The position numbers and the translations under genes are program-made. Positions 741 to 5,664 of a DNA stretch of 64,000 nucleotides are shown piece after piece. Source of the stretch: Escherichia coli (GTDB taxonomy: Bacteria > Pseudomonadota > Gammaproteobacteria > Enterobacterales > Enterobacteriaceae); assembly GCF_051903065.1 (NCBI RefSeq), contig NZ_CP178438.1. One strand, given 5' to 3'. The notes under the pieces are model-generated. The model ran no database searches and was not told the DNA's origin. It saw only the letters and a list, made by a program, of their open reading frames with translations. Every line of letters starts with the position of its first letter. Within the stretch, counting starts at the first letter, position 1.

Positions 741-1865
741 TCACGCCATTGTCCCAATCGTCTTCCTGAATCGCAGCAGTGCGATGGTGAAAAACGCGCC
801 GCCAATTGCCATCAGCGTCAGGAACTGCGGCCAGACGATTTCGAATCCGGCACCCCGGTAGAGAATGGCCTGCGCGAGGCTAACAAAGTGTGTCGTCGGC
901 ATGGTCAGCATAATGTCCTGCACCATCTGCGGCATACTTTCGCGCGGCGTGGATCCACCGGAAAGCATTTGCAGCGGCAGCAGCACCAGAATCACCAGCA
1001 GCCCCAGTTGCGGCATTGAACGCGCTATCGTCCCCATAAAAATGCCAATTGACGTGGTGGCAAACAGACTGAGCGCCACGCCCAGCATAAACAGCGGGAT
1101 CGAGCCTTCAATCGGTACACCCAGCACGCCTTTCACCATCAGCACCAGCGATAATCCCGATACCACCAGCACCACTAGCCCCATCGACCAGACCTTCGCC
1201 ATCATGATCTCAAACGGCGTTATCGGCATCACAAGTAAGTGTTCCACCGTGCCGTGTTCACGCTCGCGGATCAGCGCCGATCCGGTCAATACAATCGCCA
1301 GCATAGTAATGTTGTTGATGATCGCCATCACCCCGCCAAACCACGCGGGATCGAGGTTCGGGTTAAAGCGCATCCGGGTTTCCAGCGATACCAACGGTTC
1401 GCTATTATCACGGTAGCGCGCGACAAAGCTGTTCACTTCACCGTTGATAATATTCTGGATATACCCATTGCCGGTAAATGCCTGACTCATGCGCGTGGCA
1501 TCGACGTTCACCTGAATATCCGGCTGGCGTCCGGCGAGGACATCACGCTGAAAATTAGGCGGAATATTTATCGCAAAGGTATAGCGCCCGGCGTCCAGTC
1601 CAGCATCCATCTCATCGGCGGTGATCATCTCCGGTGGCAAAAACCACGGGCGATAGAAGCTGTTAACGATCCGGTTCGATAACTGCGATTGATCCATATC
1701 GGCAATGGCGATCGGCGCGAGGTTCAATGATCCTGGCGTGACGGTCGCTGACGAATACACCGACACCGTAAACGAGAAGACAATCAATGTCAGCATCGCT
1801 TTATCACCGAGTAGACTGCGCAACTCTTTGATACCCAGATTAAAAATATTGCGTAAATGGCGCAT
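741..1865 (-). CDS. yhhJ: ABC-2 type transporter permease YhhJ
   Basis: ORF translation matches YhhJ ([20 protein letters not shown]...); tandem ATGATG start overlaps the rbbA stop; start chosen as second ATG to give about 374 aa. Confidence 0.8.
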   Translation of the reverse strand: MRHLRNIFNLGIKELRSLLGDKAMLTLIVFSFTVSVYSSATVTPGSLNLAPIAIADMDQSQLSNRIVNSFYRPWFLPPEMITADEMDAGLDAGRYTFAINIPPNFQRDVLAGRQPDIQVNVDATRMSQAFTGNGYIQNIINGEVNSFVARYRDNSEPLVSLETRMRFNPNLDPAWFGGVMAIINNITMLAIVLTGSALIREREHGTVEHLLVMPITPFEIMMAKVWSMGLVVLVVSGLSLVLMVKGVLGVPIEGSIPLFMLGVALSLFATTSIGIFMGTIARSMPQLGLLVILVLLPLQMLSGGSTPRESMPQMVQDIMLTMPTTHFVSLAQAILYRGAGFEIVWPQFLTLMAIGGAFFTIALLRFRKTIGTMA

Positions 1866-4600
1866 CATCCCTCCTGTTTTTTCAGCAGCAGGATGCTTAA
1901 GCCCATCACCAGCGGTATGGCTATCAGCAACGGGATAAAAAGTTGCCACAAATCAGTCAGATCCAGCGCTTTCGAGAACGTTCCGCGGGCGATAGTCAGA
2001 AAATGACTGGTCGGGTAAACCTCGCCGATCCAACGTCCAGGCCCTTCCAGCGAAGCTACCGGATCGATCATCCCGGAAAACTGTGTCGCCGGGATCAACG
2101 TGATAATCGCCGTTCCGAAAATGGCGGCAATCTGGCTTTTCATAAAGGTGGAGATCAGCAGCCCCATTCCGGTGGCGATGATGATATACAGCAGCGCCGC
2201 CAGGGTAAGCGTCAGGAAACTGCCTTTATGCGGTACGCCAAACACAAACACCGACAGGCCGCAGAGCAGGAAAAAGTTCAGCATCCCCAGCGCGATGTAC
2301 GGCAGCTGTTTGCCAAGCAAAAACTCGCTACGGGTGGTGGGGGTCACGTAAAGGTTGATAATCGACCCTAGCTCTTTTTCCCGCACCACGCTAAGGGCGC
2401 TTAGCATTGACGGGATCATCATCAGCAGAAGCGGGATCACCGCCGGAACAATCGCTGGCAGGCTTTTTACGTCCGGGTTATAGCGATAGCGCGTCTCAAT
2501 GTTCATCAGCCCGCTTTGGCTGGAGGGTGTGGATTGTCGGCTCGCCACATCCTGTAGCCAGCTCTGGTGCATAGCCTGCACGTAACCTTTTACCGTTTCG
2601 GCACGACTGGGCATCGCTCCGTCGATCCAGACACCGAGTTCCACAGGCGTACCACGCGCGATATCACGCCCGAAATTGGGCGGGATCTCAATTGCCACCG
2701 TGATATCGCCCGCACGCATCCGACGATCAAGCTCGTCATAACTGGTGAGCGGCGGCTGTTCGATAAAGTAACGGGAACCGGAGAGGTTGAGCGTCCACGC
2801 CTGGCTACTGACGGTCTGGTCACGATCGAGCACCGCAAAGCGCAGGTTTTCCACATCCATACTGATGCCGTAACCCATTATCAGCATCAGGATCACCGTT
2901 CCCATCAGCGCCAGCGTCGAACGGACCGGATCGCGGCGCAATTCCAGTGCTTCGCGCCGGCTGTAGCTAAACAGACGGCGCAGGCTAAATCCCTGGCGCG
3001 GCGCGTGTGTAGCATCGTGTATCACGGGAGGCGCTTCGGCTTCGTTGCTCTGTCCTGCCGCTTCCTGCAAATAGGCGATAAATGCCTCTTCCAGACTGGC
3101 GGCTCCGCGTTTCTCAACCAGTTCCTGCGGTGTACCGCTGGCGAGCACTTTTCCGGCGTGCATCAGTGAGATACGGTCGCAGCGTTCCGCTTCGTTCATA
3201 AAGTGGGTGGAGATGAAGATAGTCACTTTGTCCTGGCGCGAGAGATCGACCATCAACTGCCAGAACATATCCCTCGCCACCGGATCGACGCCAGAAGTAG
3301 GTTCATCGAGGATTAACATTTCCGGGCGATGAATCACCGCCACCGCCAGCGAAAGCCGCTGGCGAATGCCGAGCGGCAATGACTCCGGCAGAACATCTTC
3401 AACGTCGTTGAGTTTAAAACGCTCGCTCATTTCAGCCACTCGCGCGGGAATTTCCGCTTCCGGGATGTGAAACAAACGGGCATGTAACTCCAGGTTTTGC
3501 CGCACGGTGAGTTCGTTATAGAGCGAAAACGCCTGCGACATATAGCCCACCCGACGGCGGGTATCGATATCTTTTGGATCAACCGGTTGCCCAAACAGCC
3601 ACGCCTCACCTTCGCTGGCGGGCAGCAGTCCGGTGAGCATTTTCATGGTGGTGGATTTACCGCAGCCGTTCGAACCAAGAAAACCAAAAATCTCCCCGCG
3701 TGGAATGCGGAAATTAACGTGATCAACGGCAACGAAGGAACCAAAACGCATGGTCAGATCGCGCGCTTCGATGGCAATCTCTGCGTTTTCAGGTTGATAC
3801 GGTGGGATCACTACCGCCTGATGCGCCTGGCGTTGCGCTTGCGGTAACAGATTTATAAATGCTTCTTCCAGCGTGGCGCTTTGCGTTTGCTGCCGCAGCT
3901 CTTCGGCGCTGCCAGTTGCCAGCACTTCTCCGGCATTCATCGCTACCAGCCAGTCGAAGCGTTCCGCCTCTTCCATATAGGCGGTGGCGACCAGCACGCT
4001 CATATTGCTCTGCCGCTGGCGAATACTGTCGATCAGATCCCAGAACTGGGCGCGAGAGAGCGGGTCAACCCCCGTTGTTGGCTCATCAAGAATCAACAGT
4101 TCCGGGTCGTGGATTAACGCACAGCACAGCCCCAGTTTTTGCTTCATCCCGCCGGAGAGTTTCCCTGCCGGACGATCGCGAAACGGTGCTAACCCGGTGC
4201 TGGTCAGCAGCTCATTAATTCGGACTTCCCGCTCCGCTTTATCGTGACCGAACAAGCGAGCGAAAAAATCGACATTTTCATACACCGATAAGGTGTGGTA
4301 GAGATTTTTGCCCAGCCCCTGCGGCATCCAGGCGATGCGCGGGCAGACGTCGCGGCGATGCTTCGGGTCGCGCATATCGCCGCCCAGCACCATCACATTG
4401 CCCTGTTCAATGACGCGGGCACCGGAAATCAACGACAACAAGCTCGACTTCCCGACGCCGTCCGGGCCAATCAGCCCGACCATGCAACGGGCCGGAATAT
4501 CGAGTGTGATATTGTTCAGCGCAACGGTTTTTCCATAATGCTGGCTCACGCCCGCCAGTTGCGCGACAGGCGGGACGGGAACCAGTTCCAGATGCGTCAT
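1865..4600 (-). CDS. rbbA: Ribosome-associated ATPase RbbA (two ABC ATPase domains fused to a permease domain)
   Basis: 911-aa ORF with two Walker A motifs ([18 protein letters not shown]), two LSGG signature motifs and a hydrophobic C-terminal domain. Confidence 0.85.
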
Positions 4601-5664
4601 TGCGGCAACCTCACCACGAGGTCGTCAGGCCACGGAAGTTCTTCATTCACCCGCACCCACGCTACGCCCGGTAAACCGGTTTTGACATATTCCAGATGCT
4701 GCTGGAGTAATTCCGGTGGGATACGCGCTTTGACGCGGAACATCAGTTTCAGCCGTTCATCGCTGGTTTCGACGGTTTTTGGCGTGAACTGGGCGACACT
4801 GGCGACAAAACTGATGGTTGCAGGAATACGCAGATCTGGCGCAGCATCGAGGATCAGCCGGGCTTCACCGCCCAGTTTCAGCGTGCCCGCCTGTTCGGTT
4901 GGCAGGAAGAAGGTCATATAGACGTCGCTGAGATCGACCATATTCAGCACCCGACCGCCTGCCGCCAGCACTTCGCCTGGCTCGGCAACCCGATACTGCA
5001 CGCGTCCGTCACGCGGGGCTTTCAGTTCGCTGTCATCGATATCTGCGGCAATGCGCCGTTCAGTGGCTTGTGCGGCTTCGACGCGGGTTTGCGCCTGAAT
5101 GATATTGGTGCGTGCCGCTTCTATAGCCGCTTTAGAAGCCGAAACCTGAGCTTTTGCCGATTCCAGCGCCGCTCTGGCGCTCTCAGCGGCGGCGCGGTCG
5201 TCATCCAGCTGTTGCGCAGAAATAGCCCCTCGTTGGGCCAGTGAACGGGAACGCGTATGACGTTTTGCTACGGAGTCCAGTTCTGCCTGGCGTTGATTAA
5301 CCAGCGACTGCGCGGCACGAGTTTCGCTTTGCCGTTGCTCCAGCAAAGCCTGCGCGGCAGCAACGGCACTTTGTGCTTCTTTGATTTGCGCGATGGCTTC
5401 CAGTCGCTGTTCCTGCAACACGCGAGTATCCATCTTCGCCAGCACTTCGCCTTCGCGAACAAACTGGCCTTCTTTCACCAGAATGGTGTCGATACGCCCA
5501 GCAATTTTGCTGGCGATATCCACTTCCGTCGCTTCAATGCGCCCATTGCTGACGGCAAAGCCTTCCGGAACACCTGCCGGGCGCAACAGCCACCACGCCA
5601 CGATAGCCGCCACCGCCAGTAACCCGACAACCCACCACGCCAGATGGCGCTTACTCTTATCCAT
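4597..5664 (-). CDS. yhiI: HlyD-family membrane fusion protein YhiI
   Basis: 355-aa ORF with N-terminal TM helix and long Ala/Gln-rich coiled-coil region; 4-bp overlap with rbbA start. Confidence 0.8.

What the first reader, a model, noticed from the sequence alone, without database searches (positions are those of the whole stretch)
741..5664. yhhJ-rbbA-yhiI transporter operon is translationally coupled at both junctions
The rbbA start overlaps the yhiI stop by 4 bp, and the rbbA stop is embedded in the tandem ATGATG start of yhhJ. This points to one polycistronic unit of membrane fusion protein, double-ATPase-permease fusion and ABC-2 permease, i.e. a tripartite exporter of unknown substrate sitting immediately next to the yhiJ/yhiL pair.
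Basis: seen in the sequence. Interest (0 to 1): 0.25.

Follow-up and report, generated by a model that had tools for sequence, protein, structure and literature searches.

The report
Known E. coli yhiI-rbbA-yhhJ exporter operon
This is the already annotated E. coli yhiI-rbbA-yhhJ operon for a membrane export pump of unknown cargo; its genes do overlap end to start, which is real, conserved across many bacteria, and ordinary for genes whose products assemble into one machine.

Summary
On the minus strand, the yhiI stop and rbbA start share ATGA (4597-4600). The rbbA stop TGA (1867-1865) lies inside ATGATG; the annotated yhhJ start is the second ATG (1865), a 1-nt overlap. The K-12 reference annotation has the same geometry, and the operon yhiI-rbbA-yhhJ is already listed with one sigma-70 promoter, which I also find at 6025-5998.

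- YhiI is a HlyD-type adaptor.
- RbbA has two ATPase domains plus an ABC-2 permease half.
- YhhJ is the paralogous second permease half.

In 80 related loci, both junctions stay within -4..+3 nt in about 92% of cases. A Shine-Dalgarno-like CAGGAG lies in the last rbbA codons. An outer-membrane-factor gene sits directly upstream of the adaptor gene in 22 of 68 loci. This supports a co-translated, envelope-spanning exporter. Translational coupling itself remains inferred, not shown.

It lies in a conserved, apparently structured leader where Rho-dependent termination has been published.

Such overlaps are common: 5 of 28 same-strand gene pairs in 50 kb of this window.

Verdict: confirmed, supported, already known, low interest.

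The parts
5998..6025 (-). Sigma-70 promoter of the operon: -35 TAGACA (6025-6020), 16-nt spacer with TG, -10 TACTAT (6003-5998). The transcription start is inferred near 5991.
   Evidence: Consensus scan. The same hexamers are listed as the constitutive RpoD promoter of yhiI-rbbA-yhhJ in PMC3946193. The start is inferred from the 5' end of the yhiI 5'UTR cloning primer GAGACTGTTG... in the eLife 2021 supplement.
5654..5883 (-). Conserved leader RNA with predicted helices. P1 is 5875-5860 with 5708-5693. P2 is 5854-5848 with 5777-5771 and covers the yhiY SD. P3 is 5839-5835 with 5830-5826. P5 is 5760-5752 with 5745-5737. P6 is 5732-5725 with 5721-5714 and contains the yhiY stop codon.
   Evidence: Alignments A1 and A2, RNAalifold, pair counts with controls, and re-test on 22 distinct sequences including metagenome variants. 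No Rfam family matches.
5727..5840 (-). yhiY, a 37-codon upstream ORF and first cistron of the transcript. It coincides with a C-rich, G-poor stretch.
   Evidence: PGAP and K-12 annotation. Pfam PF23514 at 98.7 bits. Found by ribosome profiling of initiation complexes (bioRxiv 10.1101/511675). C/G ratio 1.4-1.67 over 5865-5749.
5707..5729 (-). Published Rho-dependent RNA 3' ends at -65 and -43 from the yhiI ATG, converted from K-12 coordinates 3630667 and 3630645. A further Rho-dependent 3' end lies inside yhiI near window 5117.
   Evidence: eLife 2021 supplement (PMC7815308). The text reports the yhiI fusion more than 2-fold up in rho R66S. Coordinates mapped through the K-12 annotation.
4597..5664 (-). 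yhiI, the periplasmic adaptor (membrane fusion protein), 355 aa. It has an N-terminal membrane anchor, a long coiled-coil hairpin and an R138-x3-L142-x6-S149 motif.
   Evidence: Pfam and NCBIfam. Nearest solved relatives are EmrA and MacA. Sequence motifs.
4597..4612 (-). Junction 1: SD-like GAGG (4612-4609), an 8-nt spacer, then ATGA (4600-4597), where the rbbA start overlaps the yhiI stop.
   Evidence: Sequence. The 4-nt overlap is the nearest in-frame start in 63 of 78 related loci.
1865..4600 (-). rbbA, 911 aa: NBD1, NBD2 and an ABC-2 permease half. NBD1 lacks the H-loop His (Ala207). NBD2 has the signature LPLGI in place of the LSGGM found in NBD1.
   Evidence: The motif asymmetry is invariant in 81 sequences.
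1863..1875 (-). Junction 2: AGGAGG (1875-1870), ATG (1868-1866), rbbA stop TGA (1867-1865), and the annotated yhhJ start ATG (1865-1863).
   Evidence: Sequence. Annotation. A CAGGAG-like motif and a tight junction are conserved.
741..1865 (-). yhhJ, 374 aa, the ABC-2 permease half. It is paralogous to the RbbA C-terminal half (28% identity, E 6e-28).

Best explanation
This is the chromosomal E. coli operon yhiY-yhiI-rbbA-yhhJ.

One sigma-70 promoter (6025-5998) drives a leader RNA that holds the small upstream ORF yhiY. Three large cistrons follow without any intergenic space.

A ribosome finishing yhiI terminates on the UGA of AUGA, directly on the rbbA start. A ribosome finishing rbbA terminates on the UGA inside AUGAUG, 1 nt into the yhhJ start and 4 nt after an AGGAGG encoded by the last rbbA codons. 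This geometry favours termination-reinitiation, and it unmasks the downstream ribosome-binding site. RbbA and YhhJ would therefore be made together.

The products are expected to assemble as one RbbA (both ATPase domains plus one permease half) with one YhhJ (the second, paralogous permease half). That gives a pseudo-heterodimeric ABC-2 (type V) exporter with one consensus and one degenerate ATP site.

[quoted passage not shown] The cargo is unknown.

Shown here: the sequence geometry, the domains, conserved synteny and junctions, the promoter match, and the published Rho-dependent ends in the leader.

Inferred: actual translational dependence, subunit stoichiometry, the TolC partnership, and the direction and identity of transport.
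For: - **Geometry:**
- **Operon and promoter:** published operon in PMC3946193 and PMC9962212. The same hexamers are found, with no minus-strand promoter-like site inside 741..5664.
- **Domains:**
- **Paralogous permease halves:**
- **Invariant NBD asymmetry in 81 sequences:**
- **Conserved gene order (adaptor, rbbA, yhhJ) and tight junctions in 80 loci from many Proteobacteria and beyond:**
- **SD core before yhhJ:** 56 of 73 loci against 6.7% at random internal positions.
- **OEP gene abutting the adaptor gene:** 22 of 68 loci.
- **Paralogous operon:** cecR-ybhGFSR has the same style of overlaps, 1, 8 and 8 nt.
- **Co-expression:** rbbA and yhhJ were reported co-upregulated in one transcriptome.
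- **3' end mapping:** the 3' end supplement has no entries in rbbA or yhhJ.
Against: - No experiment demonstrates coupling.
- yhhJ has a near-consensus SD and could initiate on its own.
- RNA folds around both junctions are no more stable than shuffles (z 0.37 and -0.74), so there is no evidence that the downstream sites are occluded.
- The conserved 'K-K-Q-E' C-terminus of RbbA could be a protein constraint rather than an SD constraint.
- A Rho-dependent 3' end inside yhiI means not every transcript reaches rbbA.
- No outer-membrane factor is encoded in the window.
- No solved structure of any of the three proteins exists.
- Older biochemistry, and a 2025 in vitro study with truncated RbbA, assign RbbA a ribosomal role.
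Confidence: 0.75

Rival explanations
1. The overlaps are only genome compaction. The three cistrons share one mRNA, but each is initiated independently from its own Shine-Dalgarno site, and downstream translation does not depend on upstream translation.
For: AGGAGG sits before yhhJ and GAGG before rbbA. No unusually stable structure masks either start. Overlaps of 1 or 4 nt are common in this window, 5 of 28 pairs.
Against: Junction phase and distance are kept in about 92% of 78-79 diverse loci, while the flanking sequence changes. In the minimum-free-energy fold, the yhhJ SD and first AUG pair with upstream rbbA codons, although that fold is not significant.
Confidence: 0.25
2. RbbA is mainly a ribosome-bound translation factor (an E-site ATPase). 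Its place between a membrane adaptor gene and a permease gene says little about its real function.
For: The NCBI product name is 'ribosome-associated ATPase'. Truncated RbbA lacking the membrane domain changed in vitro translation yields 0.6 to 2.1-fold (PMC12096078).
Against: The permease half is intact and conserved, and it is always followed by a paralogous permease and preceded by an adaptor gene, often with an outer-membrane factor gene. RbbA has no ABC-F linker domain: Pfam finds no ABC_tran_Xtn, and the inter-NBD linker is only about 20-25 residues. The paper linking RbbA to YhjD and the ribosome in vivo was retracted in 2025. The 2025 assays used a truncated protein because the full-length one was unstable.
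Confidence: 0.1
3. rbbA and/or yhhJ are transcribed mainly from internal promoters, so the three genes are not one unit.
For: None found. The promoter scan is crude, and long low-abundance transcripts are poorly covered by published maps. Nothing was found in the SMRT-Cappable-seq supplements.
Against: No minus-strand promoter-like site lies inside 741..5664. There is no intergenic space. Only one RpoD site is listed for the operon. Synteny is conserved.
Confidence: 0.08
4. A -1 ribosomal frameshift at G-GGA-UGA fuses RbbA to YhhJ. This would give a full-length NBD-NBD-TMD-TMD transporter as a minor product.
For: The yhhJ frame is open for 28 codons upstream of its start (ORF 741..1949). GGA to GGG re-pairing is possible at a slow UGA stop. 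Databases hold 1272-1286 aa RbbA-YhhJ fusion proteins.
Against: The database fusions have different junction peptides, so they come from independent DNA indels or sequencing errors. They are singletons. There is no slippery heptamer, and the SD-like element is at the wrong distance for known -1 stimulators. The junction sequence is not conserved outside Enterobacteriaceae.
Confidence: 0.02

Closest known systems
E. coli YbhG-YbhFSR (cecR-ybhGFSR operon), the in-genome paralog
   Same: A HlyD-family adaptor gene comes first, followed by a double-NBD ATPase and two ABC-2 permease halves. Cistrons overlap (1, 8 and 8 nt). No outer-membrane factor is in the operon, and TolC is proposed as the partner (PMC7190983).
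   Different: In YbhFSR the ATPase and both permeases are separate proteins; here the first permease half is fused to the ATPase (RbbA). ybhGFSR begins with a TetR-type regulator gene (cecR); this operon begins with the uORF yhiY and a Rho-sensitive leader.
MacAB-TolC tripartite ABC efflux pump
   Same: An inner-membrane ABC transporter works with a membrane-anchored HlyD/MacA-type adaptor. YhiI matches MacA weakly (E 1e-4) and carries an R-x3-L-x6-S motif of the kind described, from my own knowledge, at the MacA/AcrA hairpin tip.
   Different: MacB is a homodimeric type VII (FtsX-like, 4-TM) transporter with one NBD per chain. RbbA/YhhJ are ABC-2 (type V) permeases, whose nearest solved relatives are ABCA and ABCG proteins. 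So this works like MacAB but is not a member of its family.
ABC-F ribosome-binding ATPases (EttA, Uup, YbiT, YheS)
   Same: Two tandem NBDs sit in one chain. RbbA has been used alongside them as an 'E-site binder' in vitro.
   Different: ABC-F proteins have no membrane domain and carry a long inter-NBD linker. RbbA has a 370-residue permease half, a short linker and no ABC_tran_Xtn match.
Overlapping stop/start (AUGA, UGAUG) translational coupling in bacterial operons
   Same: Both junction types are the classic 4-nt and 1-nt overlaps with an SD inside the upstream gene.
   Different: Nothing is unusual. The only extra point is how deeply the geometry is conserved in this transporter family.
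uORF-dependent Rho attenuators such as mdtU-mdtJI
   Same: A short validated uORF lies upstream of a transporter operon. Rho-dependent 3' ends lie just downstream of it, and the authors of the mdtU work list yhiY-yhiI as a candidate of the same kind.
   Different: No signal, stalling site or regulatory outcome is known for yhiY. Only its first 7 codons are conserved.

Membership tests
RbbA family (NCBIfam NF033858, equivalog) | Full-length match above the curated cut-off (1050 bits) | tested here: met
   1596.9 bits over residues 12-910. The DNA is 100% identical to RefSeq E. coli genomes annotated rbbA.
ABC-2 (type V) ABC exporter | Two NBDs with Walker A, Walker B and a signature motif | tested here: met
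   GPDGVGKS and [14 protein letters not shown] and MLILDE; LSGGM in NBD1 but LPLGI in NBD2; the H-loop His is present only in NBD2.
ABC-2 (type V) ABC exporter | Two ABC-2 type permease halves | tested here: met
   ABC2_membrane_3 in RbbA 569-903 (E 1.6e-39) and YhhJ 25-364 (E 2.4e-34). The halves are 28% identical.
Tripartite (envelope-spanning) ABC efflux system | Periplasmic adaptor of the HlyD/MFP family encoded with the pump | tested here: met
   YhiI has HlyD_3, HlyD_D23 and Biotin_lipoyl_2, and matches TIGR01730 RND_mfp at 118.5 bits (cut-off 94.9). The adaptor gene is adjacent in 78 of 80 loci.
Tripartite (envelope-spanning) ABC efflux system | Outer-membrane factor (TolC/OEP family) partner | tested here: inconclusive
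   None is encoded in the window. An OEP gene (PF02321) lies directly upstream on the same strand in 22 of 68 related loci, but in none from Enterobacterales. Dependence on TolC cannot be tested here.
MacB family (type VII ABC) | FtsX-like 4-TM permease with a MacB periplasmic domain | tested here: not met
   Pfam finds only ABC-2 families in RbbA and YhhJ. The nearest solved chains are ABCA and ABCG transporters.
ABC-F translation factors | Soluble protein with two NBDs joined by a long linker (ABC_tran_Xtn / PtIM) and no membrane domain | tested here: not met
   No ABC_tran_Xtn hit at E up to 0.01, and a permease half is present. NBD1 and NBD2 align with only a short linker.
Translationally coupled cistrons (termination-reinitiation) | Downstream start within a few nt of the upstream stop, with an SD inside the upstream gene | tested here: met
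   ATGA with GAGG 8 nt upstream; TGATG with AGGAGG 4 nt upstream. Conserved in related loci.
Translationally coupled cistrons (termination-reinitiation) | Downstream translation depends on translation of the upstream cistron | not testable with these tools
   This needs reporter fusions with premature stops. Folding gives no significant masking structure.
Single transcription unit (operon) | One promoter, no internal promoter or terminator, and a transcript spanning all genes | tested here: inconclusive
   The promoter matches the published one, and no internal promoter-like sites were found. No full-length transcript data were found. A Rho-dependent 3' end lies inside yhiI.

The most novel reading that the evidence does not exclude
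The 230-nt leader (window 5883-5654) may be an undescribed cis-regulatory RNA of Enterobacteriaceae. A long-range closing helix and four hairpins enclose the uORF yhiY, including its SD, start and stop. Translation of this C-rich uORF would decide whether Rho terminates before yhiI. The leader could then report either the exporter's unknown cargo or the state of the ribosome, which would be of interest given RbbA's disputed ribosome link.
Probability: 0.3. Interest if true: 0.45.

Novelty: already known. Interest (0 to 1): 0.15.

Why it matters
As written, the finding adds nothing to the E. coli annotation. The overlaps can be read from the K-12 reference record, and the operon is in the regulatory literature.

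The comparative results do bear on an old ambiguity: whether RbbA is a ribosome factor or a transporter subunit. Three points favour the transporter reading:
- The fixed gene order adaptor, RbbA, YhhJ.
- Junction geometry that stays tight across distant bacteria.
- The frequent presence of an outer-membrane factor gene in the same operon.

That reading gains weight at a time when one of the papers supporting the ribosomal role has been retracted.

The conserved leader with yhiY offers a practical route to the unknown cargo. Whatever relieves Rho termination there is a candidate inducer.

Tried and rejected
- **RNA folding of 90-nt windows around both junctions and the yhiI start.** Energies were no better than shuffles (z 0.37, -0.74, 1.38), so I make no claim of masking structures.
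- **Rfam scan of 500..6200 at E up to 1.** No match.
- **PDB sequence searches.** No structure of RbbA, YhiI or YhhJ exists, only distant relatives.
- **Published full-length transcript or operon tables.**
  - The SMRT-Cappable-seq supplements do not mention the genes.
  - The Conway 2014 supplements are not held.
  - The paper I requested as PMC4006352, hoping for protein synthesis rates, is not held.
- **The riboswitch-entropy paper that mentions the operon.** It refers to a site 6.6 kb away and is irrelevant.
- **RbbA-YhhJ fusion proteins at the top of the homolog search.** I considered them as evidence for programmed frameshifting and rejected that. Their junction peptides differ and each is a singleton.
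- **Helix 4 of the RNAalifold leader model (variable middle of yhiY).** It did not hold in the 22-sequence alignment and was dropped.
- **The roughly 104-nt segment after the -10 hexamer as a possible repeat element.** It is single-copy in every genome that has it, so it is not a repeat.
- **Functional link to yhiJ/yhiL.** It is not conserved outside Escherichia in the loci examined.

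
Full report
**What the window is.** The first 8 kb are 100% identical to RefSeq E. coli chromosomes, and the region is present in 5414 of 5426 complete E. coli genomes. The PGAP annotation of an identical genome places these genes, all on the minus strand:

| Gene | Window coordinates |
|---|---|
| hicB | 37..396 |
| hicA | 393..668 |
| yhhJ | 741..1865 |
| rbbA | 1865..4600 |
| yhiI | 4597..5664 |
| yhiY | 5727..5840 |
| yhiJ | 6030..7652 |
| second DUF4049 gene | 7914..9503 |

The K-12 MG1655 reference has the same geometry for yhhJ, rbbA, yhiI and yhiY.

**Checking the observation.**
- Junction 1 reads gtgAGGttgccgcaATGAcg. The rbbA ATG is 4600-4598 and the yhiI TGA is 4599-4597, a 4-nt overlap. 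GAGG lies 8 nt upstream.
- Junction 2 reads aaaaaacAGGAGGgATGATGcgc. The rbbA TGA is 1867-1865 and lies inside the tandem ATGATG.
- Both ATGs are in the yhhJ frame. The second one (1865) is the annotated start. It is the one kept in all eight Enterobacteriaceae loci and has the more usual spacing from AGGAGG (4 nt against 1 nt). The most likely overlap is therefore 1 nt (UGAUG), not 4.

**Is it more than chance?** A single overlap of this kind is common. In the 50 kb of this window for which I pulled annotation, 5 of 28 same-strand adjacent gene pairs overlap by 1 or 4 nt. These include hicA/hicB and two pairs in the chu heme-uptake cluster.

Conservation sets this locus apart. A scan of one genome per species returned 80 loci with RbbA relatives of 66-98% identity. 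They come from Enterobacterales, Pseudomonas, Rhizobiales, Burkholderiales, Nitrosomonas, delta-proteobacterial MAGs, a Verrucomicrobiaceae MAG and a Phycisphaerales MAG.
- The nearest in-frame rbbA start lies within -4..+3 nt of the adaptor gene's stop in 72 of 78 loci. In 63 of these it is the 4-nt overlap.
- The rbbA reading-frame phase relative to that stop is the same in 70 of 78, against 1/3 expected. The stop is TGA in 70 of 78.
- The yhhJ start lies within -4..+3 nt of the rbbA stop in 73 of 79.
- An SD core (GGAG, GAGG or AGGA) lies 4-16 nt before the yhhJ start in 56 of 73 loci, against 6.7% at random positions inside rbbA. It is encoded by the last RbbA codons, aaR-cag-gag, which give K-Q-E.
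- K908 and Q909 are invariant at the protein level too. I cannot separate an SD constraint from a protein constraint.
- The loci are related by descent, so these counts overstate the number of independent events.

**What the genes encode.**
- YhiI carries HlyD_3, HlyD_D23 and Biotin_lipoyl_2 and passes the RND_mfp subfamily cut-off. Its nearest solved relatives are EmrA and MacA. It has an N-terminal hydrophobic anchor and an R138-x3-L142-x6-S149 motif in the middle of its coiled-coil region. From my own knowledge, this pattern is described at the TolC-contacting hairpin tip of MacA and AcrA. That is a lead, not a test.
- RbbA has two ABC_tran domains and an ABC2_membrane_3 permease half, and scores 1597 bits on the RbbA equivalog model.
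- YhhJ is an ABC2_membrane_3 permease, 28% identical to the RbbA permease half (E 6e-28).
- One RbbA plus one YhhJ therefore supplies two ATPase domains and two permease halves, the full set for an ABC transporter.
- The two ATPase domains are asymmetric. NBD1 has LSGGM but Ala in place of the H-loop His. NBD2 has the His but LPLGI in place of the signature. This pattern is invariant in 81 sequences. It predicts one consensus and one degenerate ATP site, as in many heterodimeric ABC exporters (inference).

**Evidence for one transcription unit.**
- The consensus scan finds TAGACA-16-TACTAT (with TG) at 6025..5998 on the minus strand. It finds no minus-strand promoter-like site inside 741..5664.
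- Shimada et al. list exactly these hexamers as the constitutive RpoD promoter of the operon 'yhiI-rbbA-yhhJ' (PMC3946193). Another genomic SELEX paper uses the same operon name.
- The 5'UTR cloning primer of Adams et al. starts at GAGACTG, 7 nt after the -10 hexamer. This places the likely transcription start near 5991 (my inference).
- I found no published full-length transcript data.

**Evidence for an envelope-spanning exporter.**
- In 5 of 10 diverse loci scanned with Pfam, the gene directly upstream of the adaptor gene on the same strand is an OEP (TolC-family) outer-membrane factor.
- By tblastn this holds for 22 of 68 loci with enough upstream DNA. None of these is from Enterobacterales.
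- The in-genome paralog cecR-ybhGFSR has the same parts as separate proteins. It also has overlapping cistrons of 1, 8 and 8 nt and is thought to use TolC.
- The 'tripartite' reading is therefore well supported by comparison. In E. coli the outer-membrane partner remains an assumption.

- yhiY (37 codons, 5840..5727) was found by ribosome profiling of stalled initiation complexes.
- Adams et al. found the yhiI fusion more than 2-fold higher in a rho mutant. They listed yhiY-yhiI among uORFs with an RNA 3' end less than 200 nt downstream.
- Their supplement gives Rho-dependent 3' ends at -65 and -43 from the yhiI ATG (window about 5729 and 5707). Another lies 547 nt inside yhiI.
- Aligning Escherichia, E. 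albertii, Citrobacter, Pseudocitrobacter and Kluyvera shows that the 45 nt before yhiY and its first 7 codons are invariant. The rest of the peptide is not conserved. It is read in another frame in Citrobacter and is cut to 4 codons in Kluyvera.
- RNAalifold predicts a closing helix around the whole uORF and several hairpins. On the alignment the structure was derived from:
  - 97.2% of cells pair, against 35-47% when partners are slid.
  - 7 pairs change on both sides, against 0-2 when slid.
- A metagenome scan yielded 16 further loci, adding 14 distinct leader sequences. In 22 distinct sequences, helices P1, P2, P3, P5 and P6 hold, with new compensatory changes in P6. Helix 4 does not hold.
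- The uORF coincides with the only C-rich, G-poor stretch of the leader (C/G 1.4-1.67), which is what a Rho loading site looks like.
- No Rfam family matches.
- This is moderate evidence from close relatives, and the structure was partly derived from the same sequences. I treat it as a lead.

**The RbbA literature.**
- RbbA is named a ribosome-associated ATPase.
- The 2011 paper linking it to YhjD and the 30S subunit in vivo was retracted in 2025.
- A 2025 study used RbbA without its membrane domain, because the full-length protein was unstable. It saw 0.6 to 2.1-fold effects on in vitro translation.
- RbbA lacks the ABC-F linker domain and carries a conserved permease half. Its operon context is that of a transporter in every locus examined.
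- I rate a primary ribosomal role as unlikely (0.1), but it is not excluded.

**Coupling itself.** The geometry and its conservation fit termination-reinitiation. Nothing here shows dependence. RNA around the junctions folds no better than shuffled sequence, and yhhJ has a strong SD of its own. I put about 0.6 on real translational dependence at one or both junctions. I put 0.75 on the overall picture of one operon encoding one adaptor-dependent ABC-2 exporter with co-ordinated synthesis.

**Verdict.** Both are already known from the reference annotation and the regulatory literature, and the overlap motifs are ordinary. Interest is low. The most novel reading left open concerns the leader, not the junctions.

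Noticed in passing
window 5654-5883 (minus strand): The leader is conserved across Escherichia, Citrobacter, Pseudocitrobacter and Kluyvera. The 45 nt upstream of yhiY and its first 7 codons are invariant, while the rest of the peptide is not conserved. The predicted structure has a closing helix around the uORF and a hairpin holding its stop codon, with some compensatory changes. No Rfam family matches.
   Followed up: yes
window about 5894-5997 (minus strand): A roughly 104-nt single-copy segment lies between the -10 hexamer and the conserved leader. It is absent from E. coli strain SCPM-O-B-8794 (L002), E. albertii and Citrobacter, where the promoter abuts the leader. A 111-nt query spanning it matches 4282 of 5426 E. 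coli genomes, once each. The leader therefore comes in a long and a short form within the species.
   Followed up: partly
proteins P0001-P0010 (database hits to RbbA): RbbA-YhhJ fusion proteins of 1272-1286 aa are predicted from a few E. coli assemblies. Their junction peptides differ, so they arise from independent indels, or sequencing errors, in the last roughly 84 nt of rbbA, where the yhhJ frame is open (ORF 741..1949).
   Followed up: partly
window 1865-4600 (RbbA residues 148-152, 204-209, 408-412, 463-468): The two ATPase domains are asymmetric in all 81 sequences compared. NBD1 lacks the H-loop histidine (Ala). NBD2 has LPLG(I) instead of LSGG(M). This predicts one degenerate and one consensus ATP site.
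   Followed up: yes
loci L012, L015, L016, L021, L031, L033, L045, L055, L081 and others: An outer-membrane factor gene (Pfam OEP) ends at or next to the start of the adaptor gene in 22 of 68 related loci, forming a four-gene operon. None of the Enterobacterales loci has it.
   Followed up: yes
window 37-668 (minus strand): A hicA/hicB toxin-antitoxin pair, itself with a 4-nt overlap, lies 72 nt downstream of yhhJ. It has its own promoter-like site (729..702), and no terminator-like site was detected after yhhJ. K-12 has the yhhI transposase-like gene at this position instead.
   Followed up: no
window 7914-9503 (minus strand): The second DUF4049 gene upstream of yhiJ is annotated as an intact CDS here (7914..9503), whereas K-12 yhiL is annotated as a pseudogene.
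   Followed up: no
window 28711-37663: The chu/shu heme-uptake cluster lies between dctR and yhiD in this strain. chuY is annotated as frameshifted. Two of its junctions also show 1-nt and 4-nt overlaps.
   Followed up: no
window 4597-4640 and related loci: The adaptor C-terminus (V/I)-(K/R)-(L/V)-P-(Q/E)-stop recurs across many of the distant loci. Its last codons supply both a weak SD (AAGG or GAGG) and the A or G of the overlapping rbbA start codon.
   Followed up: partly
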